62,309 bases of DNA from a virus (Duplodnaviria; Caudoviricetes): positions 1 through 62,309 of IMG/VR virus record IMGVR_UViG_3300022929_000020; one strand, written 5' to 3'. A program made the position numbers and the translations under genes. Shown here piece by piece: positions 975-32,102 of the stretch. Numbering within the stretch: the stretch's first letter is position 1; each line of letters starts with the position of its first letter. Below the pieces are notes generated by a model that was given only the letters and a program-made list of their open reading frames with translations, did no database searches and had not been told where the DNA came from.

Positions 975-1019
975 AAGTCACAACGGTTAGTGTAGGTTCG
1001 ATTCCTACGGTGACTTCCA
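975..1019 (+). ncRNA. Anticodon-less tRNA-like element 1
   Basis: aagtcac/gtgactt stem; T-arm gtagg-TTCGATT-cctac; ends in CCA, whose A is the A of ATG 1019. Confidence 0.8.
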
Positions 1020-2583: not shown

Positions 2584-2642
2584 TAGCGAGGAAATTGGTT
2601 CCGCCGTATGGCAAGGAGGTTCGACTCCTCCCTCGCTACCTA
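2584..2642 (+). ncRNA. Anticodon-less tRNA-like element 3
   Basis: Perfect 7-bp tagcgag/ctcgcta acceptor stem; T-arm ggagg-TTCGACT-cctcc; discriminator C then CTA overlapping ATG 2642. Confidence 0.85.
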
Positions 2643-2940: not shown

Positions 2941-3102
2941 ATGGACGAACATTTTGACAGATTAATCAGAGAAATTAAAGATGCGATCGATCTATACAAG
3001 ATCGGTGTGCAAGACGGAGAGCGTACAATAGCTAGCATCTACATGAGTGACATGTGGATTGCAAAGAAAATCAGAGAAAACGAACGAAAAGAAAAGAAAT
3101 GA
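2941..3102 (+). CDS. Hypothetical protein (53 aa)
   Basis: MDEHFDRLIREIK...KEKK, directly after the promoter motif. Confidence 0.7.
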   Translation: MDEHFDRLIREIKDAIDLYKIGVQDGERTIASIYMSDMWIAKKIRENERKEKK

Positions 3103-3311
3103 AGATATGCAAGTGCGGGGACGCTATCCATCCAGTAAGAATTAAGTTGAACTATCCAACATGTGTAAAGTGTTCTACAACAGAGCCTTATGGCGCAGTT
3201 CAAATAGTTAACCACAAAACAGGTAATGAGTTTCAATTCTTACCTAAATCTCAAGCAGACGCTATCAATAAGATGGGCGAACGCAAAGGTTATGGCACTT
3301 GCCTAAGATAA
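3099..3311 (+). CDS. C4 zinc-finger protein (DksA/TraR-type finger)
   Basis: CKCGDAIHPVRIKLNYPTCVKC. Confidence 0.65.
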   Translation: MKICKCGDAIHPVRIKLNYPTCVKCSTTEPYGAVQIVNHKTGNEFQFLPKSQADAINKMGERKGYGTCLR

Positions 3312-3318
3312 CCTACAT

Positions 3319-3405
3319 GGGCGTGAATTGGTAAGTCAACACAACTCGATCGAAAATCATCTCGAGTGTGTTGTAACGCAGGTTCGATTCCTGCCACGTC
3401 CACTA
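3319..3405 (+). ncRNA. tmRNA tRNA-like-domain mimic (element 4)
   Basis: gggcgtg/cacgtcc acceptor stem with G3.U70 and A73; stemless D-loop; long helix caacac-a-actcga/tcgagt-gtgttg; T-arm gcagg-TTCGATT-cctgc; then CTA. Confidence 0.85.
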
Positions 3406-3408
3406 ATT

Positions 3409-3669
3409 ATGGAAATAAGAATAAATAAAGATGCACAAGAAAAGCAGCAGCGAGAAGAGCTAAACAGAGTTATTGTTAGAGCTAAAACGTATGCTAATGC
3501 AGGTGTAGAGTTTTTTGACTTCAAAAGACAAATAGCGATCGGTTTATCTCCTTATGAATTAATACAAATAGTAGAGAAAGAAACTAATGGCACAGTATTT
3601 TGCGAGCAAAGATTCAAAGTAACATTGAAAGAATTCTGCGACACAATAACGTTCACCATAAAGAAATAA
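3409..3669 (+). CDS. Hypothetical protein
   Basis: ATG 4 nt after element 4; the longer track ORF runs through the RNA element. Confidence 0.75.
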   Translation: MEIRINKDAQEKQQREELNRVIVRAKTYANAGVEFFDFKRQIAIGLSPYELIQIVEKETNGTVFCEQRFKVTLKEFCDTITFTIKK

Positions 3670-24023: not shown

Positions 24024-27000
24024 TTAATTTCGTCTTTTTGAATCTCTATTTTGACCCATACGTCTTAGTTCTAATAAGCTTTTGCTTTTTGTGAATGAAC
24101 CTCTATACCCTTTGGCTTTTGATTTTTTATTTTTACTTTTCTTTTCTAAGCCAAGCTCCCATTTTTGCCAACCACCTAGTAGCGCTAATCTTTCGTAGAG
24201 CTCTAGCTCTTGACTCAAAGCGTAATCAACGTTGTTTATCTTCTTTATAACACGATCAGCTGGCACGTTTGTAGTAGCAGATATCACGTTGCCTGCAGCT
24301 AGCCAAGCTGGATTATCCAAGCTGAAACCTTTAGTTTCCATTTCTTTTCTGTTCCATTGAACTTCTCTAGCTGCTTGTTGTAGCTTAGATATTTTAGAAG
24401 AAACAGGAGGCGATATTCTAAGTATTTCATTTACGACCTTGTTGTATTTAGGACTTTTCTTTTCTGACTCTTCAATAGCTTTTAATGTTGCATTTTTAAC
24501 AACACTTGTTACAGCTCCTTGAACACCAGCTCCTCTCATTATACCATCTACAACACTGTTAGACATTTTCCATATTCTATCTTCCATCTCTTCTTCGTCG
24601 TCAAAGTCTGCTGCAAACAATGCTGACTGTAGCGACGTGAATATAACGCCCTGTATTACGCTGTAATACATAATCTTTGATAGGTTAGTTTTGAAGTCTC
24701 CTCTATTGTTGGCCAAGTCTAAGCTAGCTTTCTTTATTATTCTGGCGTACTGACTTGGTGTATTAGCAAACGCTAAAACTACACGACCTAAAGGACCAGC
24801 TTGCTGTTGCGATATTCTATCTGGTCTACTAGACTGCTGTGATTCTTCAGCTGCTTCTCTAAAGTCTTCAAACGCTTTTGTTTCGGCTTCTTTCTGAGAC
24901 ATGCCTTCTTTTAAGTAGGTTTTTATTCTGTTTCTATAGAAAGTAGAACCACCAGATGCAATAGCAAATCCGTCAGCAATCTGCGTAGGTAAAAATCCTT
25001 TTTGTAGTAGGTATGCTAACGCACCTTTTGCTCCACCTTTGTTTGCCATTTCCGCAATGTCAGCTTCGTTAACATTAATAGTTAAGTTATCTCTACGTTC
25101 TTTTAAGAAATCTGAATTAAATAAGAACATAAAGTCTTTCCAGTATTGCTTTTGATTTGCGAAAGCGGCTGAAGCCTTAAATACGTTGTTGTCAGACCAG
25201 TTTATAAAGTTAACAGCAGATATAGTCTGAAGTATAGCAGATCTAGTGTTAAAGAACATTATAGCGCCTGTACTACCGTTAACCCAATCTAAAAACTTAC
25301 CAGTCAAAGAATCACCATCGAAGTTTCTATTTTTACCTGACTTCATTCTTTGAAGTATGTTTTCCATAGCGCCTCTATAAGTAGATCCATAAGCAGCTTC
25401 CATCTTGTTTAGATTTTCTTTTGAAAATATAACGTCAACGTTTTGCTGCCACTCTTCCAAGTGCTTAGCGCGTTTAGTAACTTGCAAGGTATTTAGTAGA
25501 TCCGTTGTTATACTTCCAGCCATCCAGCTTTCACCTGGTGTAGCATAGCCATCGCCTTTGGTTATTTCTACTAGTTGGTCCGCAAACACTTGTAACGTAG
25601 CGTCGTTTTCTACATACTTTGTCATGTCAGCTAAGTCTGTTTTGCTAAGACCAGGAACATCAAACCCTTGCTTGTTCCATATGTATATCCTAACGGCCTG
25701 CTCTTTGTTGAATCCTTCGCCTTTGATTTTCTGCTTCAACTTCTTAGGCACAACACCTAGTTGCTTTTTTAAGGCTTTATAATCAGCGGCCAAAGACATC
25801 CTTTCGTTTGCTATATTGTTCATGGCTCTAGTATAAGGATCTAATAAATTCTTTTTGTACCACGCCATTTGGTTTTCACCAAGCTTTCCTTTTGATAGAG
25901 TTGAATACAATAATCCTACGAAGTCCTCAGCTGATGGAGATATAAAGAAATTAAACTTACCCTTACTCACTCCTATTACCTCGGCCTTAGCATCGCTATA
26001 TCTTTTTTCAGAAGCAATACCCGTTTTAGCCTCGAGTATATCGTTGAACTCTTTGTCTAACTTTTCATAAGCATCTTTATATACAATACGTTCTTTAGAT
26101 TTTACATCTAAAACTTTCATTGCATCTTGAACAGCTTTCACATTCTTATATGCGTCATCTGTAAAGTAAAAATCGTTGTAGCCTTCTGCAGCCTTATCAA
26201 CCATCCATTGCGCCTTAGCTTCAGGTGAACTGTTTGCTAAGCCAGTTATGTTTTCTAATGGTATCTCGTAACCAAGACCTTTTAAAAACTCATATATTGC
26301 CGATGCTGAATTAGCAGGTCTAGCTGTTAACACAAACACATCTTTGTTACCAAACTTTTTAATTGCTTTGTCCAACTTGGCAATTAAAGGGCCAGGTTCA
26401 CCACCGACAACTTTGCTGAAATCGCTAAAGTCAAACTCAGCTCCTTGCTTTAATAGTTCGTCTCCACGCTTAGCAAATTCAGTGGCATCTATTTGGGTTT
26501 CAGTACCATCAGGCATAGTTACTCCTACCACGCTCTTGGTGGTTGCAAGAGTATCGTCAAAGTCAAACACAGATATACCTTTTACTTTAGCTTTAACATT
26601 TCTAGCGTTACGTAAGGCTTTGTCTCTATTGGAAAGATCATTTAATATTTTTTCATTAGATAGGTCTTTTTTCTTAGAGAATTTAGTTGTTACATTTTTT
26701 AATCTACTTTGATTTGCAGCTGCCGCTTCCTCTGTTTTTAACTTTATATGTTCGTTTAAATATTCTTGATGGTTGCTATATTTTTCCTCTCCTTTTATTT
26801 TATCAAGTAATAATCTATTTTGAAGATTTAAATTATCTACTGTTTCATACTCTTTAGGTAAAGTAACGCCTATCTCTTTAGCCCAAGATTCGTTTGTTTC
26901 AATGTTTACTATATCATTGAAGTTCATCCTAGGAAGGTTTTCTATATTCTCGGTTAAAATATTTGCAGTAAGCATTCTTATAGCCCCAACGTTTTCATCA

Positions 27001-30000
27001 AACAAGCTGGATCCTTCAGCTAGTGTTGCGTCAAGCTTCGCTTTGTCTAGTATAACGTCATATTGTTTGCCTAGTACGACTTGAAAGAAGTTTTTTCTAA
27101 CAGCACTCATTGCTTCTTTAGCTGTATTGGTTAAAATACCATGTATTAAATAACCACCAATCACAGAGGCTGGAACCGTATGTTCTTCTCTTATTAACTC
27201 TCCTTTGTTCTGTTCTGGCTTACCATATTCCCCTGCGTATTTAGGGTTCATGGTTTTGTATTTAAAAGGTGCAGATATTTTAATTACGCCAGATGTAGCT
27301 TGGTAAGCTTTAGTTATGAACTTAACAGCGGCATCAGCAGATAATTTTTTGTTATTAACTGCATCAGCTAACTTAATAGTCATTTCCTCTAGAACATCTA
27401 AATTAGTAGCAAACTGTTCATTAGCCTCCTTAGTTCCAGCTTTTTTAACTGAAACTCTTTTAGGTTTTTTAGCTTCTAACTCAGTATTTTGTCTTGCTAG
27501 TTCTTCTGCTCTTCTATAAGCAGGGTCTTCAGTTCCGTAATATATATCACTTCTATCCGGTGTGAAGTCTCCAGATCTAGATTTTTTTATTTTGTCTGCT
27601 TTTTCTTTATCTTCTACTAGGTTTCCTAATTGATTCTTTTTAACAGGAACTTTTACAAACTCATTGTTTTTTAAAGCGTAGTATTTAAATTTAAGTTTGT
27701 TTGAGCCTTTGGCGGCTTTTTCTTTTTTACTAAACTCTACAAATTTACCATCTTTATTAAACTCGCCGTAAACGGTTTTTACTCCAAAGTTAGTAAACTT
27801 AGCTGATCTAAACATTTCCAATGTTATGCCTCCAAGTTTTATTATTTCTTCTATTTCAGAGTGCAGTATGTCTATTTCTTTAGTTGTGTTTATATCTTTT
27901 AAATCAACTCCGTTGTCTTTTAAAACTTTATAAACATCTTTTATAGTTCTAGTTGATCCAAGTTCTTTTTGTACTTTTTGTACTTTTTTAGATAGCATAA
28001 CTCTAGGTTTACCAGCAGCAACATCAGCAACCTCTTGCTTTGTAGCTCCAGCTGCTTCCATCTCTTGTCTAACCAAGGTATTTGCAGCTAGAGTAGAATA
28101 AGTCTTAGCCATGCCTTTCAATAGCTGACCAATAGGGCTTCGTAACTCTCCTTTAGGTAATATATTAAGTTCTCCTTTTGGAGTTATGCCAATATCTTTT
28201 TTGATCTTATCTATGATTTCTTTAGAAACAACACCTCTAAACTCAGGCTTCAATCTTTTAACGGCTGTCTGACTTGTCAATCCTTTGCTTCTACCTTTTG
28301 GACTAGTTAGTTTACCAGTTGGATCAATGAAGTCTTCGTAGAAATAATCAAGTATACGCTTAGGCAATCCTAGGCCTGTGCCTTGAACTCCTTTAGATAC
28401 ATCTATTGTTTCGATACCTATTTGAGTTTCAGGTAATGCTATATTTGTTTCTGGTAGTATCTTGACGAATTTATCTAAATTGTCAGCTTTAAAAAAGAAT
28501 TGTTGTATAGCCCTTGCTTCATTTACAGATCCAAGGTTGGCTGCAGATTCTGTGATCTTTTTAGCTGGTATACCTATAGCTTGCTCACCTACTTCACCAG
28601 CATATTGCTTTGCTACTTTCTTGAATGTTAAGCCTTTGCCAGGTTTGTCACTTAATTTTATTTCAGCTGGCACGCCAGTGAATTTAAGTGGATTTATTTT
28701 TGGCTTTTCTTTTGTTTCAACTTGTTCTTCTACTGCTGTTTCAACATCTGCGATTTGTTTAGTTGACTCATCTATACTAGTTTCTTTTGATCTACGCTCA
28801 GACTCTTGGAATAATTTTTTCTTGGCATCTAGCTTTCCAAACGCGGTGTTAGCAAATATAAACTCACCAAATCCTTCGCGGCCAATGATTGATCCATCTT
28901 TTCGTTTAGCTTGAGGATCAAAGTTCATTAACCTCTCAAGCACAGAGTCGACAGCTAGCTCAGCTTCCATAGCGCTAGAAGTTCTAGACTTTATGTAGTT
29001 ATTTATAGCACCGCCAGGATTCATAGCGGACTCATATACTTTAGTGAAAGATCTATCAGATAGAAACTGCTCTTTTGTTTCTATTCCTTCTGGTATTAAA
29101 TTGTTTATTTCTTCAAGTACCGTAGATTTAGAATACATTGCTCTTCTACTGTCTACGCCTACACCTTTGTACACTTTATCTAAAAAGTCCTGTGGTAAGT
29201 CTTTGCCGTACTCTATAGCTTCTGTGTTTATTTCATAAAGCTTGTCTCCAAAATCTTGCTTGTATTTAGCTAGACTTTCTTGCACTTGATCGTAAGTCTT
29301 TGTTACTATTTTGTCAGGAAGAGATCTTTCTTTTCTAGCCTTGTTTCTATCCAGGGCAGTTTGTAAAGGAGTGTTAGCGACAACCATGGATACGTCAAAT
29401 CCAGCGTTTTCGAGCTCTTTGACTTTCTTCATGGTTGCGTTATACGATGCGCCAGTCCCGTCTATAACCATATCATTTTTATTAGAAACGTATTGGTTAA
29501 ACTTTTCTTTAGCTGCTTTAACGGCGTTTGCACCAAGTTTAGATCTTAACGATCTTTGCTCTGCTGTGTACTCAGACTCTTCAGCAGGTAGACCAGCTTC
29601 TTCTTTCATAGCTTCCAATGCTATGTCTTGGTTTACAACTTTGAAACCTCTTCTACCTAGCTTAAGCCCTTTACCAACATTAGTCTTACCAGCGCCAGGG
29701 CCACCAACCATGAATATAGCTTTAGGTTTTTCTGCTGCTGACTCTTTAACCTTAGTCTCAGTCTCTTTAATTGTAGGTTCAGAAACTAAACGACCTTCTG
29801 CTGTTTGCTTTAGTAACTCGCTTTGCGCTTTTGTAAATCTGCCTTTAGTTACACTTTTATTATAGTCTTTTATGAAATTGAAAACATCATTAGAGTTATT
29901 GAAGTTTATCTTGGTGAAGCCTACGGACTGTAATACTCTTCTTATTGATCCACCTATTTTTTGAAACAAGCTTTCTTCAAACTCTATTTCTCCAGTTGCA

Positions 30001-32102
30001 ACAGCATCGGCAAATAAAGTAAGTGTCTCTTCGGGTTTTGCATCTGAGCTGTATCTACTAAGTCTATCTTTGAATTCGCTTTGCTCTAGTATAGATGGAT
30101 CTATTTTTTCTATTTCTTTTTCCAACGAAGCTGCTAATGATTTTGCTACTTCTTGGTTTTCACCAACAGTTTTAAACAATACAGCATGTAACAGCTCATG
30201 TGATGCTACGTTAACTGCTTGATCTTTGTTTGCTACTTCCTTATTAATAACAATAGTTTGCTTGCCATCAGATCTTTGAGCTATGTAGCCTTGTTCAAAT
30301 GAAGCTTTCTTATCTATGTCTTGCTCTTCAGCTATAGCGTTTGCTTCTTCTGTGTTCTCTGCAGTTATTATTTCTACGTTGTCAATACCTTCTACTATCT
30401 TAGCTACATTTTTAGTAGTTTTAAGAGTTTTGTTTTCAATCCCTATTTGCGCTAGGCGTTCATCTACTTGTTTTAATCTATTTATATCATCTGAAACAAT
30501 CGCTTTGTTATCACCAGCGTCTTGAACTCGCTGATTAATATCTGCTCTTTCTTTTATTAAAGATACCGTTTCTTCAGAAAGTTCTTTTTCTATTCCTAGT
30601 TTTTCTGATATATTTACAGCAGCCTTAGTCCTGTTAAAGTTTGCTTGTATATCTTTAGACTCTTGCTCTGTTATTTCGCCTAGCTTTTCTTTTATTTGTA
30701 ACTCGTTTTTAAGTACGTTTTCAGTATACTTGTTTTTAGCTATATCTATAGACTCTAAGTCAGAAGCTCCAGAAATAAAAGCATCAGATACGTTGTTGTA
30801 GTTTGTTTTATTTAATACTCTATTAACTATTTTATCTTCTGTTATTGATTTAGATAGTTCTATAGTGTTACTAGCTGCCTTTATGCCACCACCTGTAATA
30901 AAAGACAGGAAGAAAACATCAGCGAACTCTCCCCAAGATTCGCTAGTTTTAAAGTCTTTATTTAAGTATATGTCATCGGCTAGCTTATTAATAACTTCGG
31001 TGCTAACTTCGGATGCTCCTTCTTTGCCTCCTTCTTTTATTACTCCTTTGGATATCTCAGTTAAGTTCTTTTTAATTATTGCTCTTGGCTTGTTAGCTAA
31101 TGACTTAAATAAAGACTTTCCAAGTCTTCTAGTTGTTATTTCTAACAAGGCTTCTGATGCTCCTCTAGTTGCACTATAAGCTATTAAACCAGCGTCTATT
31201 TTTTTACCTTCTTTTATAGCTTCCTCAGAAGCTGAAGCCGCAGACTGTAGACCTATAGTAGGTAAACCAACTACAGGTACAAATGCTTCACCTATGGAAG
31301 GCAACAAACCACCTATGTTGCTAAACGTTCTAGCAAAACCTCTAGAGTAATTACCTATTTGGAAATCTTCTACTATACCTTCTGTGTACTGTGGTAGTCC
31401 TTTTTCTATTTCTTGTATTTCTATATCTAGTTCTTTTGCTTTTTTAGAAGCTTCTATAGAAGGTGTCAAGCCTATAGCTTGAGCATATATATCTTGAGCT
31501 TTAGGACTTAGTCTATCAAAGCCTTGTTTTTGTTCATCAGTCATAAACAATCTTCTAATAGCCATGTTTGCCCTGTTAGCTAGTAAAGGTATTTTAAGTA
31601 TATCTGATTCTATTTGTAAAGCACTAGCTTTTAATCTTTCTCCAAATGTTTTAACTTCAGTTAAATTACTAGGTCTCTTTTTTACTTTTATATCTACAGG
31701 TGCTATCTTTTCTATTTCTACGTCTCCTTCTTCATCAATAATCAAACCCATATTAGCTAAATCTGATTTTGAATACTTACCAGACGTCAGCATTTTTTCT
31801 AAACCAGGATATTTTTCTAGCCCAGGCAGAAACACTTCTTTAGAAACTTCAGTTTTAGGTTTTGGTTGTTTTTCTTCGTCAACTTCAAATCCATATAAAT
31901 TACCTGTAGGTGACTCCAATGAACCACCTTCCAAGTTGGAGACCATATCGTTTGTAGATCCCGTGCTTGTCTCCTGTTTCAAGGGATCTGTGGTCTTTTT
32001 TGGCGGGTCTGTATCGTTATCAAACTCATCTAGCTTTGCAAGAATTTCTTCGTCAGTTAAGTTTTGATTAACTAAGTCTTGTATGTATTGCTGTCTTTCC
32101 AT
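24024..32102 (-). CDS. Giant (2692 aa) probable ejected/internal virion polyvalent protein with zincin, P-loop kinase and HAD phosphatase domains
   Basis: HELLH (30186-30200); GGPGAGKT...DGT...RNKAR (~29170-29730); FDFDDTL...LTAR...TDD (~26090-26590); last gene of the tail/ejection operon. Confidence 0.8.
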   Translation of the reverse strand: MERQQYIQDLVNQNLTDEEILAKLDEFDNDTDPPKKTTDPLKQETSTGSTNDMVSNLEGGSLESPTGNLYGFEVDEEKQPKPKTEVSKEVFLPGLEKYPGLEKMLTSGKYSKSDLANMGLIIDEEGDVEIEKIAPVDIKVKKRPSNLTEVKTFGERLKASALQIESDILKIPLLANRANMAIRRLFMTDEQKQGFDRLSPKAQDIYAQAIGLTPSIEASKKAKELDIEIQEIEKGLPQYTEGIVEDFQIGNYSRGFARTFSNIGGLLPSIGEAFVPVVGLPTIGLQSAASASEEAIKEGKKIDAGLIAYSATRGASEALLEITTRRLGKSLFKSLANKPRAIIKKNLTEISKGVIKEGGKEGASEVSTEVINKLADDIYLNKDFKTSESWGEFADVFFLSFITGGGIKAASNTIELSKSITEDKIVNRVLNKTNYNNVSDAFISGASDLESIDIAKNKYTENVLKNELQIKEKLGEITEQESKDIQANFNRTKAAVNISEKLGIEKELSEETVSLIKERADINQRVQDAGDNKAIVSDDINRLKQVDERLAQIGIENKTLKTTKNVAKIVEGIDNVEIITAENTEEANAIAEEQDIDKKASFEQGYIAQRSDGKQTIVINKEVANKDQAVNVASHELLHAVLFKTVGENQEVAKSLAASLEKEIEKIDPSILEQSEFKDRLSRYSSDAKPEETLTLFADAVATGEIEFEESLFQKIGGSIRRVLQSVGFTKINFNNSNDVFNFIKDYNKSVTKGRFTKAQSELLKQTAEGRLVSEPTIKETETKVKESAAEKPKAIFMVGGPGAGKTNVGKGLKLGRRGFKVVNQDIALEAMKEEAGLPAEESEYTAEQRSLRSKLGANAVKAAKEKFNQYVSNKNDMVIDGTGASYNATMKKVKELENAGFDVSMVVANTPLQTALDRNKARKERSLPDKIVTKTYDQVQESLAKYKQDFGDKLYEINTEAIEYGKDLPQDFLDKVYKGVGVDSRRAMYSKSTVLEEINNLIPEGIETKEQFLSDRSFTKVYESAMNPGGAINNYIKSRTSSAMEAELAVDSVLERLMNFDPQAKRKDGSIIGREGFGEFIFANTAFGKLDAKKKLFQESERRSKETSIDESTKQIADVETAVEEQVETKEKPKINPLKFTGVPAEIKLSDKPGKGLTFKKVAKQYAGEVGEQAIGIPAKKITESAANLGSVNEARAIQQFFFKADNLDKFVKILPETNIALPETQIGIETIDVSKGVQGTGLGLPKRILDYFYEDFIDPTGKLTSPKGRSKGLTSQTAVKRLKPEFRGVVSKEIIDKIKKDIGITPKGELNILPKGELRSPIGQLLKGMAKTYSTLAANTLVRQEMEAAGATKQEVADVAAGKPRVMLSKKVQKVQKELGSTRTIKDVYKVLKDNGVDLKDINTTKEIDILHSEIEEIIKLGGITLEMFRSAKFTNFGVKTVYGEFNKDGKFVEFSKKEKAAKGSNKLKFKYYALKNNEFVKVPVKKNQLGNLVEDKEKADKIKKSRSGDFTPDRSDIYYGTEDPAYRRAEELARQNTELEAKKPKRVSVKKAGTKEANEQFATNLDVLEEMTIKLADAVNNKKLSADAAVKFITKAYQATSGVIKISAPFKYKTMNPKYAGEYGKPEQNKGELIREEHTVPASVIGGYLIHGILTNTAKEAMSAVRKNFFQVVLGKQYDVILDKAKLDATLAEGSSLFDENVGAIRMLTANILTENIENLPRMNFNDIVNIETNESWAKEIGVTLPKEYETVDNLNLQNRLLLDKIKGEEKYSNHQEYLNEHIKLKTEEAAAANQSRLKNVTTKFSKKKDLSNEKILNDLSNRDKALRNARNVKAKVKGISVFDFDDTLATTKSVVGVTMPDGTETQIDATEFAKRGDELLKQGAEFDFSDFSKVVGGEPGPLIAKLDKAIKKFGNKDVFVLTARPANSASAIYEFLKGLGYEIPLENITGLANSSPEAKAQWMVDKAAEGYNDFYFTDDAYKNVKAVQDAMKVLDVKSKERIVYKDAYEKLDKEFNDILEAKTGIASEKRYSDAKAEVIGVSKGKFNFFISPSAEDFVGLLYSTLSKGKLGENQMAWYKKNLLDPYTRAMNNIANERMSLAADYKALKKQLGVVPKKLKQKIKGEGFNKEQAVRIYIWNKQGFDVPGLSKTDLADMTKYVENDATLQVFADQLVEITKGDGYATPGESWMAGSITTDLLNTLQVTKRAKHLEEWQQNVDVIFSKENLNKMEAAYGSTYRGAMENILQRMKSGKNRNFDGDSLTGKFLDWVNGSTGAIMFFNTRSAILQTISAVNFINWSDNNVFKASAAFANQKQYWKDFMFLFNSDFLKERRDNLTINVNEADIAEMANKGGAKGALAYLLQKGFLPTQIADGFAIASGGSTFYRNRIKTYLKEGMSQKEAETKAFEDFREAAEESQQSSRPDRISQQQAGPLGRVVLAFANTPSQYARIIKKASLDLANNRGDFKTNLSKIMYYSVIQGVIFTSLQSALFAADFDDEEEMEDRIWKMSNSVVDGIMRGAGVQGAVTSVVKNATLKAIEESEKKSPKYNKVVNEILRISPPVSSKISKLQQAAREVQWNRKEMETKGFSLDNPAWLAAGNVISATTNVPADRVIKKINNVDYALSQELELYERLALLGGWQKWELGLEKKSKNKKSKAKGYRGSFTKSKSLLELRRMGQNRDSKRRN

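What the first reader, a model, noticed from the sequence alone, without database searches (positions are those of the whole stretch)
3319..3405. Mini-tmRNA: alanine-identity tRNA-like domain with no mRNA domain
Seen: acceptor stem GGGCGTG/CACGTCC with a G3.U70 wobble and A73 discriminator; a stemless D-loop (aattggtaagt); a ~12-bp helix closed by a short loop in place of an anticodon arm; a short connector; and a T-arm. Established: G3.U70 plus A73 is the AlaRS identity set, and this stemless-D-loop/long-helix architecture is that of the tmRNA TLD bound by SmpB. Inference: an ~85-nt alanylatable TLD lacking a tag reading frame could sequester SmpB/EF-Tu and inhibit trans-translation, or release stalled ribosomes without tagging. 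The encoded end is ACTA, so CCA would have to be added after trimming.
Basis: partly seen in the sequence, partly recalled or inferred. Interest (0 to 1): 0.85.

Follow-up and report, generated by a model that had tools for sequence, protein, structure and literature searches.

The report
Tag-less alanine tRNA-like phage RNA
An uncultured phage of marine Flavobacteriaceae-type bacteria carries a small RNA gene that copies the alanine-accepting top half of the ribosome-rescue RNA tmRNA but has no anticodon and no tag message; its whole phage clade keeps the same frozen shell around an ever-changing middle, and its job is untested.

Summary
Window 3319-3402 (+) folds as described: a 7-bp acceptor stem with G3.U70 and A73, an 11-nt stemless GG loop, a 12-bp helix, a TAAC connector and a canonical T arm.

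It is neither a tRNA nor a standard tmRNA:
- ARAGORN finds nothing.
- Rfam tRNA scores 28.8 bits against a cut-off of 29.
- Rfam tmRNA scores 34.2 bits against 47.

It belongs to a family found in 69 viral and 6 MAG contigs. All share the 5' and 3' shell. The centre runs from none (47-nt form) to about 100 nt and is replaced wholesale between near-identical loci. Carriers form one phage clade (terminase 70-89% identical). G3.U70 and A73 held in 34 of 34 acceptor-blind hits and survived compensatory changes at pairs 4:69 and 5:68. Two members have A3-U70. No tag frame is conserved.

The published TLD-only tmRNA of mycobacteriophage DS6A has the same architecture, size (83 nt) and CTA trailer, and scores 43.2 bits in the same test.

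Alanylation, SmpB binding and any effect on trans-translation remain inferred. Processing-signal and RNA-scaffold roles are live rivals.

This scan has noted such RNAs before on other DNA.

The parts
3319..3325 (+). Acceptor stem, 5' strand (GGGCGTG); G3321 is position 3 of the G3.U70 wobble
   Evidence: Identical in 70 of 74 unique family members.
3326..3336 (+). Stemless D-loop analogue (AATTGGTAAGT) with the GG dinucleotide
   Evidence: The family consensus is AAATGGTTAG, found in 31 of 74 members. Bacteroidota tmRNA genes have ACTGGTTTTGAC at this place.
3337..3373 (+). Central helix in place of an anticodon arm (P2-like): 3337-3349 pairs with 3362-3373; loop 3350-3361. This is the hypervariable part of the family.
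   Evidence: Fold. Compensatory changes in relatives. The centre is replaced wholesale in 14 of the 17 locus pairs whose two flanks match over at least 300 nt.
3374..3377 (+). Connector TAAC before the T arm
   Evidence: In the family the connector is TAAC in 33 and AAAC in 28 of 74 members.
3378..3394 (+). T arm: GCAGG, T loop TTCGATT, CCTGC
   Evidence: It matches the T arm of the Rfam tmRNA consensus except for one compensated pair (alignments).
3395..3401 (+). Acceptor stem, 3' strand (CACGTCC); T3399 is U70
   Evidence: Part of the exact 25-mer found in 69 viral and 6 MAG contigs.
3402..3405 (+). Discriminator A73 (3402) and trailer CTA (3403-3405); no CCA is encoded
   Evidence: The discriminator is A in 73 of 74 members. 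The trailer is CTA in 65, CAA in 5, CCA in 2, CAC in 1 and CTG in 1, so it always starts with C. All 18 Bacteroidota tmRNA genes read also have C right after the discriminator A, followed by TT (10), AA (4), TA (2), CA (1) or AT (1); only one encodes CCA.
3054..3311 (+). Upstream early ORF (85 aa from GTG, or 70 aa from ATG 3099; cysteine-rich; no Pfam family). It ends 7 nt before the element and is syntenic with it in L003 and L004.
3409..3669 (+). Downstream early ORF (86 aa, no Pfam family). Its ATG lies 6 nt after the discriminator.

Best explanation
The element is a gene for a small stable phage RNA of the 'TLD-only' (tag-less) tmRNA kind. My reading of how it works has five steps.

1. 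It is transcribed inside an early operon (inferred).
2. Host tRNA-maturation enzymes cut it out: RNase P at G3319, and 3' trimming after A3402 or C3403 (inferred).
3. It is completed to CCA (inferred).
4. Host alanyl-tRNA synthetase charges it with alanine, because it carries G3.U70, A73 and G2:C71 on a 12-bp acceptor/T minihelix. This rests on the established rule that these marks suffice even on minihelices (recalled knowledge).
5. With no anticodon and no tag frame it cannot decode or tag. The most likely use is to engage host SmpB and EF-Tu. It would then either soak up SmpB and damp tmRNA tagging, or free stalled ribosomes without tagging, during host takeover (inferred by analogy with DS6A and with TLD constructs reported to inhibit tmRNA).

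What is shown: the frozen shell is the functional part. The central helix is a replaceable strut; 47-nt members lack it altogether.

My odds, step by step:
- Real, selected RNA gene: about 0.9.
- Alanine acceptor: about 0.65.
- Acts through SmpB/trans-translation: about 0.35.
For: Structure and selection
- The fold is as described (z = -4.2).
- Covariation is seen in all three central helices of the subtype.
- 70 of 74 unique members form the acceptor stem and T arm in an unconstrained MFE fold.

Family
- The exact 3' 25-mer occurs in 69 viral stretches and 6 MAG contigs.
- 42 of 45 carrier records searched encode a terminase 70-89% identical to the window's. This includes 30 of 30 records that are at least 90% complete.
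- 731 of 1378 pairs of instances share no detectable similarity in either 600-nt flank. The shell is kept while its surroundings diverge.

Alanine marks
- 34 of 34 acceptor-blind hits have G3.U70 and A73.
- The wobble is kept when pair 4:69 changed (C-G to U-A in L140; to A-U in L073 at 162), when 5:68 changed (L110), and when 7:66 changed (second copy in L012).

Sequence-specific constraint
- In the same phages, the non-alanine mini elements change their acceptor sequence freely with compensation (AACTCTT, AACTTCG, AACCTTG).
- This family's acceptor stem is frozen by contrast.

Likeness to the tmRNA tRNA-like domain
- The Rfam tmRNA model gives the window's element 34.2 bits and relatives 24.8-45.2 bits.
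- Ordinary tRNAs of a Bacteroidota MAG score at most 28.4 bits. The two best-scoring of the three fetched are tRNA-Ala.
- The published DS6A TLD-only gene scores 43.2 bits in the same test. It has the same plan, 83 nt and a CTA trailer.

The centre is dispensable
- A 47-nt member has no central helix (L025).

No coding role
- No conserved tag peptide was found in 74 members.

Context
- A cultured relative, Cellulophaga phage phi38:1, holds a full-length tmRNA-like gene (87.6 bits).
- Phage Calle of the same genus is reported with one tmRNA gene (PMC8776804 passages).
Against: - No experiment or read-level data show a discrete RNA, a CCA end, charging or SmpB binding. The RNA-library data are contigs only.
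- Rfam cut-offs are not met. In cmscan the best clan hit for the window's element is tRNA (28.8 bits), not tmRNA.
- Two members have A3-U70 (L073 at 79, L098) and one has U73 (L107).
- A sister shell (AGGCGTG...CACGCCT, discriminator T; L062) has G3-C70. Alanine identity is therefore not obligatory in all relatives.
- Most of the 74 members were found with a pattern that fixes U70.
- The whole shell is frozen, not just the identity positions. Gene conversion or another sequence-specific partner could explain the conservation.
- The wholesale swapping of the centre is not explained by a pure SmpB-decoy role. Nor is the occurrence of one centre module as a free-standing hairpin elsewhere.
- The phage encodes no SmpB and no visible tRNA-handling enzyme among the 25 Pfam families listed of 38 found.
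- The window holds three similar elements with no alanine marks, which points to a shared, more general role.
Confidence: 0.45

Rival explanations
1. The element is mainly a processing signal ('tRNA punctuation'). It is a tRNA-shaped handle that recruits RNase P and RNase Z to cut the early polycistronic RNA. This releases the upstream message and leaves the downstream gene with a very short, A/U-rich leader. On this reading the alanine marks are a relic of its tRNA or tmRNA ancestry, or serve only to stabilise the excised piece.
For: - The window has four such elements on the + strand of the early region. Each ends 1-6 nt before an ATG (975-1017, 1217-1264, 2584-2639, 3319-3402).
- Three of the four lack G3.U70 and A73.
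- Both copies in L004 end 2 nt before an ATG.
- Family-wide, 45 of 81 instances have the next ORF start within 25 nt.
- In some loci the family sits directly beside genuine tRNA genes (L011, L017, L098). This suggests a shared maturation pathway.
Against: - Only 10 of 81 instances lie within 10 nt of the next start. In 24 of 81 the next start is more than 60 nt away or absent.
- RNase P and RNase Z read shape, not sequence. The non-alanine elements vary their acceptor sequence accordingly, whereas this family's acceptor stem, including the weak G.U pair, is frozen across a clade whose terminases are only 70-89% identical.
- The downstream genes are of many unrelated kinds.
Confidence: 0.25
2. 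The element is a natural tRNA scaffold. The frozen shell provides processing, stability and perhaps EF-Tu or SmpB targeting. The swappable central hairpin is the working part. It could be a decoy or binding site for a host or phage protein, under diversifying selection in a phage-host arms race.
For: - In 15 of 17 locus pairs with at least 300-nt matches on both flanks the centre differs. In 14 of them it is unrelated sequence (26-58% identity in forced global alignment), while the flanks are 66-97% identical.
- An RNA-library contig of a relative carries 100 other letters in place of 63 at this very spot.
- The same centre modules recur in different flank contexts.
- One module is embedded in the shell in L015, L040 and L078. 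In L008 it stands free upstream of another element, closed by its own 8-bp helix.
- Many centres end in GNRA-type tetraloops.
Against: - Members with no centre (47 nt) or a minimal one (68-69 nt, found in 7 contexts) exist. The centre is therefore dispensable.
- No centre matches any Rfam family at its cut-off.
- No target or partner is known.
- The swapping could be a by-product of recombination at the identical shell sequences.
- A mere scaffold would not need a frozen acceptor sequence with a G.U pair.
Confidence: 0.2
3. The element is a decayed tRNA-Ala or tmRNA pseudogene, or an attP core copied from a host tRNA or tmRNA gene for integration.
For: - The acceptor stem and T arm resemble those of tRNA and tmRNA genes.
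- Phages often integrate at such genes (recalled).
Against: - Both strands of the acceptor stem are present and pair perfectly.
- The element is conserved in 69 viral contigs, with covariation.
- A scan of one genome per species of 185,579 species found the 3' 25-mer only in 6 MAG contigs. Those read in detail look like phage DNA. No host tRNA or tmRNA gene carries it.
- No integrase family appears among the 25 Pfam families listed of 38 found.
- Tail-fibre, portal and muzzle-protein genes mark a lytic-type podophage.
Confidence: 0.03

Closest known systems
'TLD-only' tmRNA gene of mycobacteriophage DS6A (tmRNA Website; PMC4131195 and PMC11915505, passages read)
   Same: - Phage-borne and about the same size (83 vs 84 nt).
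- Same plan: a 7-bp acceptor stem with G3.U70 and A73, a stemless GG loop, one helix in place of the tmRNA body, a 4-nt connector and a TTCGATT T loop.
- CTA trailer instead of CCA.
- Sub-threshold score with the Rfam tmRNA model (43.2 vs 34.2 bits).
Sources.
   Different: - No sequence similarity beyond the generic tmRNA-domain consensus.
- Different host phylum.
- DS6A is a single reported case. Here one phage clade holds at least 74 sequence variants with a frozen shell and a centre that runs from none to about 100 nt and is swapped like a cassette.
- In cmscan DS6A's best clan hit is tmRNA (34.7 bits). The window's best clan hit is tRNA (28.8 bits).
CDS-less tmRNAs of jakobid mitochondria and Mallomonadaceae plastids (PMC3590771 abstract, from the listing; PMC11915505 passage)
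   Same: tmRNA reduced to a tRNA-like domain with no tag reading frame.
   Different: - Those are organellar genes that descend from the resident ssrA, with a nucleus-encoded SmpB.
- The Rfam mt-tmRNA model (RF02544) does not match the element at all. Its best hit in the window is 13.9 bits, elsewhere.
Full-length phage tmRNA of Cellulophaga phages of genus Callevirus (Calle: PMC8776804 passages; phi38:1: KC821614.1 26803-27164)
   Same: - Podophages of Flavobacteriaceae, distantly related to the window's phage (terminase 37.6% identical).
- Acceptor stem with G3.U70 and A73, a TTCGATT T loop and a CTA trailer.
   Different: - The phi38:1 gene is 362 nt and passes the Rfam cut-off (87.6 bits).
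- The window's RNA is 84 nt, with no room for pseudoknots or a tag frame.
Alanine minihelices and microhelices as AlaRS substrates (established biochemistry, recalled; no paper read here)
   Same: An acceptor/T-arm stack carrying G3.U70 and A73; 47-nt members of the family are essentially such minihelices (L025).
   Different: Those are laboratory constructs. This is a natural, conserved gene.
tRNA-like processing signals in mRNAs
   Same: An anticodon-less tRNA-shaped element between ORFs of one transcript. In the window it ends just before the next start codon.
   Different: This family keeps a frozen acceptor sequence with alanine marks and is often far from the next start.

Membership tests
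tmRNA (Rfam RF00023, standard form) | Acceptor stem with G3.U70 wobble and discriminator A73 | tested here: met
   Conserved in 34 of 34 acceptor-blind family hits.
tmRNA (Rfam RF00023, standard form) | T arm with a canonical T loop, plus a D-loop analogue that has no D stem and contains GG | tested here: met
   Compared with the Rfam consensus shown and with 18 Bacteroidota tmRNA genes.
tmRNA (Rfam RF00023, standard form) | A long helix (P2) leaves the tRNA-like domain where a tRNA has its anticodon arm | tested here: met
   The helix 3337-3349/3362-3373 is supported by compensatory changes.
tmRNA (Rfam RF00023, standard form) | mRNA-like domain: a resume codon, a tag reading frame and a stop codon | tested here: not met
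   The window subtype has a frame ending at the TAA of the connector, but it shifts by 1 nt between the window and L003. No tag peptide is shared across the 74 members.
tmRNA (Rfam RF00023, standard form) | Pseudoknot-rich body (PK1-PK4) | tested here: not met
   The RNA is 84 nt in all. The fold is a single hairpin between the D loop and the T arm.
tmRNA (Rfam RF00023, standard form) | Score at or above Rfam's gathering cut-off (47 bits) | tested here: not met
   34.2 bits. No hit at gathering level. In cmscan the best hit in the clan is tRNA at 28.8 bits.
TLD-only (CDS-less) tmRNA, DS6A type | A complete tRNA-like domain of tmRNA type with only a short hairpin in place of the body, encoded by a phage | tested here: met
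   Side-by-side reading of DS6A 28478-28560 and the element.
TLD-only (CDS-less) tmRNA, DS6A type | The tmRNA model scores it above ordinary tRNAs, as it does DS6A | tested here: inconclusive
   Window 34.2 bits; family 24.8-45.2; DS6A 43.2; ordinary tRNAs of MAG G005 at most 28.4. The 47-nt member scores below tRNA-Ala.
TLD-only (CDS-less) tmRNA, DS6A type | Binds SmpB and/or inhibits trans-translation; can be charged with alanine | not testable with these tools
   No RNA-protein modelling or bench assay was available. The inhibition claim for a similar molecule is taken from the PMC4131195 passage; the primary paper was not read.
tRNA (Rfam RF00005) | Cloverleaf with a D stem and an anticodon arm (5-bp stem, 7-nt loop); score at or above 29 bits | tested here: not met
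   ARAGORN finds 0 genes in the window. The score is 28.8 bits, with the D and anticodon arms unaligned. Genuine tRNAs in sister phages score 62-65 bits.
tRNA-like mRNA processing signal (punctuation, t-element) | Sits between ORFs of one transcript, with its 3' end at the start of the next gene | tested here: inconclusive
   True in the window for all four elements. Family-wide, only 10 of 81 instances lie within 10 nt of the next start.
tRNA-like mRNA processing signal (punctuation, t-element) | Cleaved by RNase P and RNase Z in vivo | not testable with these tools
   The RNA runs were available as contigs only, so transcript ends cannot be seen.

The most novel reading that the evidence does not exclude
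This phage clade runs a natural 'tRNA-scaffold' system. An alanine-chargeable, tmRNA-like shell is kept letter for letter. Into it, different structured RNA cassettes are swapped by recombination at the shell. The charged shell, with SmpB and EF-Tu, takes the RNA to ribosomes with an empty A site. Alternatively it acts as bait for host immune proteins that carry SmpB-like domains (predicted for CoCoNuT systems; PMC11090510 passages). The cassette would then tune which host factor is blocked or evaded. That would be a new class of phage counter-defence or translation-takeover RNA with a built-in diversification mechanism.
Probability: 0.15. Interest if true: 0.85.

Novelty: new variant of a known kind. 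Interest (0 to 1): 0.62.

Why it matters
Tag-less tmRNA look-alikes in phages are known in print from essentially one case (DS6A), and no natural role has been shown. This finding adds a whole clade of marine, salt-marsh and freshwater podophages, most likely of Flavobacteriaceae, that keeps one.

The sequence pattern separates what is selected from what is free:
- Selected: the alanine-type acceptor stem, the elbow and the T arm.
- Free: the centre.

If these RNAs are charged and meet SmpB, phages would be manipulating ribosome rescue as a routine part of host takeover. The family would also supply many natural variants for dissecting what a tRNA-like domain needs to enter the ribosome.

The cassette-like turnover of the centre is unexplained and may point to an arms race.

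On the practical side, these genes are invisible to ARAGORN and to Rfam cut-offs. They go unannotated, and phage phi38:1 shows that even a full-length tmRNA gene can be missed.

Tried and rejected
Detectors
- ARAGORN found nothing in the window.
- Rfam at gathering level found nothing.
- The Rfam mt-tmRNA model RF02544 did not hit the element.

Cultured phages
- blastn of a 2-kb stretch against GenBank phages found no match.
- blastn of the element alone hit only the T arms of ordinary tRNAs in unrelated phages. None covered 80% of the query.
- The tmRNA model on five GenBank relatives found no TLD-only gene. It found a full-length tmRNA-like gene in phi38:1.
- No cultured carrier of this family was therefore found.

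Tag idea
- The window subtype has a frame ending at the connector's TAA.
- It is out of register between the window and L003, and it is absent in other subtypes. Rejected.

attP or pseudogene idea: rejected.

Partner genes
- No SmpB gene was found.
- No tRNA-handling family appears among the 25 Pfam families listed of 38. The other 13 were not shown, so this is not exhaustive.
- The flanking ORFs have no Pfam family.

Fixed neighbour gene: none. The downstream ORFs are of many kinds. 7 of 80 are DUF7249-like.

First pattern scan: a scan with the window's own D loop found nothing.

Expression
- 6 RNA libraries hold small shares of the stretch.
- Laying four of them gave contigs only.
- Several distinct RNA-library contigs end in or cross the 3' shell with other centres, some at higher contig depth than neighbouring contigs.
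- Contigs cannot show ends, strand or level, and DNA may be present in such libraries. I draw no conclusion on transcription.
- Parts of the stretch without cover mean nothing.

Literature
- Searches found no paper describing this family, or any phage TLD-only RNA other than DS6A.
- The library lacks most subscription journals.
- Mao et al. 2009 was not read; it is known only through PMC4131195.
The tmRNA database tables (PMC11915505) and SI file 7 of PMC8776804 could list further phage tmRNA-like genes that I could not see.
Full report
WHAT IS THERE

Window 3319-3402 (+) lies in the 97-nt gap between two small early ORFs of a 62.3-kb virus record. The record is estimated to be 97% complete.

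The element reads, in order:
- acceptor strand GGGCGTG;
- an 11-nt unpaired loop with GG;
- a 12-bp helix with one bulged A and a 12-nt loop;
- connector TAAC;
- T arm GCAGG-TTCGATT-CCTGC;
- acceptor strand CACGTCC;
- discriminator A;
- trailer CTA.

The third acceptor pair is G.U. RNAfold returns this structure without constraints (-32.2 kcal/mol; z = -4.2; 0 of 200 shuffles as stable). The only quibble is that the loop is 12 nt rather than short.

WHAT IT IS NOT
- ARAGORN calls no tRNA or tmRNA anywhere in the window.
- No Rfam family reaches its cut-off.
- With relaxed thresholds the tRNA model gives 28.8 bits against a cut-off of 29. It aligns only the acceptor stem and T arm. Genuine tRNAs in sister phages score 62-65 bits.
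- The tmRNA model, run alone, gives 34.2 bits against a cut-off of 47.
- The mitochondrial mini-tmRNA model does not match.

THE FAMILY

The upstream ORF led to three syntenic viral contigs. Two of them hold the same element with an extra 19-nt hairpin in the centre. The third contig ends 4 nt into the element.

The exact 3' 25-mer occurs in 69 stretches of IMG/VR contigs. It also occurs in 6 MAG contigs out of one genome for each of 185,579 species. Those I read look like phage DNA, and none is a host tRNA or tmRNA gene.

I extracted 74 unique elements of 47-149 nt. One 169-nt regex over-extension was corrected to 110 nt.
- 70 have the identical acceptor stem.
- 73 have A73.
- All trailers start with C: CTA 65, CAA 5, CCA 2, CAC 1, CTG 1.
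- 70 of 74 form the acceptor stem and T arm in an unconstrained fold. In 63 of those 70 the centre is closed by a helix ending within 6 nt of the T arm.

Of 45 carrier records searched, 42 encode a terminase 70-89% identical to the window's. This includes all 30 records that are at least 90% complete. The family marks one phage clade.

The clade's nearest named relatives are Flavobacterium 'elemo' phages (46%), Cellulophaga phages (38-40%) and a Tenacibaculum phage (32%). The host is therefore probably a member of the Flavobacteriaceae. DNA runs that hold the stretch come from salt-marsh, seawater and freshwater metagenomes.

IS THE ALANINE MARK SELECTED?

Most members were found with a pattern that contains U70, so I ran two scans that leave positions 1-4 and 63-73 free. 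With the loci already held, 34 of 34 matches have G3.U70 and A73.

More telling are the variants in which a neighbouring pair changed and the wobble stayed:
- L140: pair 4:69 changed from C-G to U-A.
- L110: pair 5:68 changed from G-C to A-U.
- L073 at 162: pair 4:69 is A-U and the T stem is different.
- The second copy in L012: G7.U66, with CCA encoded.

Evidence against:
- L073 at 79 and L098 have A3-U70.
- L107 has U73.
- A sister shell (AGGCGTG...CACGCCT, discriminator T) has G3-C70.

In the same phages, the other anticodon-less tRNA-like elements change their acceptor sequences freely with compensation. The freezing of this shell therefore reflects a sequence-specific constraint, not only shape. 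The known reader of G3.U70 and A73 on a minihelix is AlaRS (recalled, established). Charging itself is not shown.

THE CENTRE

Within the window's subtype (5 sequences), all 134 pair cells are paired. Each of the three central helices has a compensatory double change.

Across the family the centre is not homologous at all.
- Among 53 instances with 600-nt flanks there are 1378 pairs. In 731 of them neither flank shows detectable similarity.
- In 17 pairs both flanks match over at least 300 nt. In 15 of these the centre differs. In 14 it is unrelated sequence, while the flanks are 66-97% identical.
- An RNA-library contig of a close relative likewise carries 100 other letters in place of 63 at this spot.
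- The same centres recur in different contexts.
- One centre module (embedded in L015, L040 and L078) also stands free, closed by its own 8-bp helix, just upstream of the element in L008.
- A 47-nt member has no centre (L025).

The shell is therefore the constant, functional part. The centre is either a replaceable strut or a cargo.

No tag peptide is shared. The frame that ends at the connector's TAA in the window subtype is out of register between the window and L003.

COMPARISON WITH tmRNA

Eighteen tmRNA genes from relatives of a Bacteroidota MAG read GGGG..G-ACTGGTTTTGAC...TTTGGAC-(T arm with TTCGATT in 14, TTCGAAT in 3, TTCGAAA in 1)-...CTCC-A. This is followed by CTT, CAA, CTA, CCA or CAT.

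The same features hold for the family:
- a stemless GG loop of the same length;
- the same T loop as most of those genes;
- 'AC' before the T stem;
- G7-C66;
- a C-initial trailer that is not CCA.

The MAG's tRNA-Ala differs at each of these points, and it encodes CCA.

With the tmRNA model, family members score 24.8-45.2 bits and ordinary tRNAs of that MAG at most 28.4 bits. The three I fetched are two tRNA-Ala and one tRNA-Phe.

The published benchmark is mycobacteriophage DS6A. It is listed as 'TLD only' (PMC4131195, passages read) and mentioned again in PMC11915505 (passages read). In the same test its gene scores 43.2 bits. It is 83 nt long, has the same plan and even the same CTA trailer. 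Both passages say that such a molecule inhibits tmRNA when expressed in E. coli. I did not read the primary paper.

A cultured distant relative, Cellulophaga phage phi38:1, holds a 362-nt tmRNA-like gene (87.6 bits) that is not annotated in its record. Phage Calle of the same genus is reported with one tmRNA gene (PMC8776804, passages). Meddling with ribosome rescue is thus already documented in phages of this host family.

CONTEXT IN THE WINDOW

My own scan found exactly these plus the element under study.

All four end 1-6 nt before an ATG. Only 3319-3402 has G3.U70 and A73. This makes a processing role plausible for all four.

For the alanine family as a whole, the distance from the element to the next ORF start is:
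- 0-10 nt in 10 of 81 instances;
- 11-25 nt in 35;
- 26-60 nt in 12;
- longer than 60 nt, or no start found, in 24.

The downstream genes are unrelated to one another. The phage has no SmpB gene. It shows no tRNA-handling enzyme among the 25 Pfam families displayed of 38 found.

VERDICT

This is a real, selected small-RNA gene of the tag-less tmRNA (TLD-only) kind. It belongs to a large, unannotated, clade-specific family.

The proposed action on SmpB and trans-translation is the best available mechanism, but it is inferred. A processing-signal role and an RNA-scaffold role remain open and are not mutually exclusive with it.

Relative to print, this is a new variant of a known kind. What is new is the scale, the frozen shell and the cassette-like centre. 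The same scan has recorded similar phage RNAs on other DNA (e1-6223015 is a sister phage; also e1-6091656, e1-6078984 and e1-4046740). I treat those notes as leads, not as support.

Noticed in passing
window 975-1017, 1217-1264, 2584-2639 (+): Three further anticodon-less tRNA-like elements (7-bp stem, GG loop, TTCGA-type T arm). They have no G3.U70, their discriminator is C, and each ends 1-2 nt before the ATG of an early gene. Homologues in L003 and L004 change the acceptor sequence with full compensation (AACTCTT, AACTTCG, AACCTTG).
   Followed up: partly
L172 1501-1862 (-) = KC821614.1 26803-27164, Cellulophaga phage phi38:1: A 362-nt tmRNA-like gene (87.6 bits; cut-off 47) that is not annotated in the record. 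A 'hypothetical protein' (gp041) is annotated on the opposite strand over it. By eye it holds an open frame of about 30 codons ending GTA TAA that could be a tag; this was not tested.
   Followed up: partly
L062, L074, L042, L050, L056 and others: Sister phages hold many other classes of anticodon-less tRNA-like elements. One is a sister shell AGGCGTG...CACGCCT or CACGTCT with A1-U72 and discriminator T. Another is a set of 47-nt minis that share the loop CTACGGTACTAAAGT but have different acceptor stems (GAGCATA, GAACATG, GGGCGTG). There are also 41-45-nt minis.
   Followed up: partly
L138 88-175 and 186-240: A second, diverged copy of the alanine shell (G7.U66, one G.U pair in the T stem, CCA encoded) lies about 70 nt upstream of the main copy. 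Between the two is another RNA-like element with a 7-bp terminal stem (GCACCCG/CGGGTGC) but no T arm.
   Followed up: no
L008 95-212; L078, L015 and L040 centres: The same RNA module of about 90 nt is embedded in the alanine shell in three loci. In L008 it stands free, closed by its own helix (GCTACAAG/CTTGTAGC), directly upstream of another element. The flank 'tagcttgtagcatat' that ends it also precedes the element in L037, L061 and L066.
   Followed up: partly
50 family loci: A tRNA-Met(CAT) gene lies near the element in 21 of 50 loci scanned, and within about 10-15 nt in L011, L017 and L098. I did not determine whether it is an initiator, an elongator or tRNA-Ile2.
   Followed up: no
Downstream flanks of L010, L013, L016, L025, L026, L048, L063, L070, L077 and others: A conserved motif follows the element (TTACAAA..AAATACGAAT..GGATAATATAAT), with the next ATG about 47-58 nt after the discriminator. 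It looks like a promoter of the next unit.
   Followed up: no
G055, G059, G036: In three carrier records the terminase match is interrupted by in-frame stops or split into pieces (for example 4 TAA in G055; mixed stops in G059). Possible causes are an intron or intein, frameshifts, or assembly errors.
   Followed up: no
L008-L011: Four contigs of one MAG labelled Aliivibrio sp. each hold a different member of the family. Given the phage clade's relatives, these are probably phage contigs binned by mistake.
   Followed up: no
window 24024-32102 (-): The phage encodes a 2692-aa protein, GroEL- and GroES-like chaperonins, a crAss-type muzzle protein homologue, and ribonucleotide reductase. No DNA polymerase family appears among the 25 Pfam families listed.
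   Followed up: no
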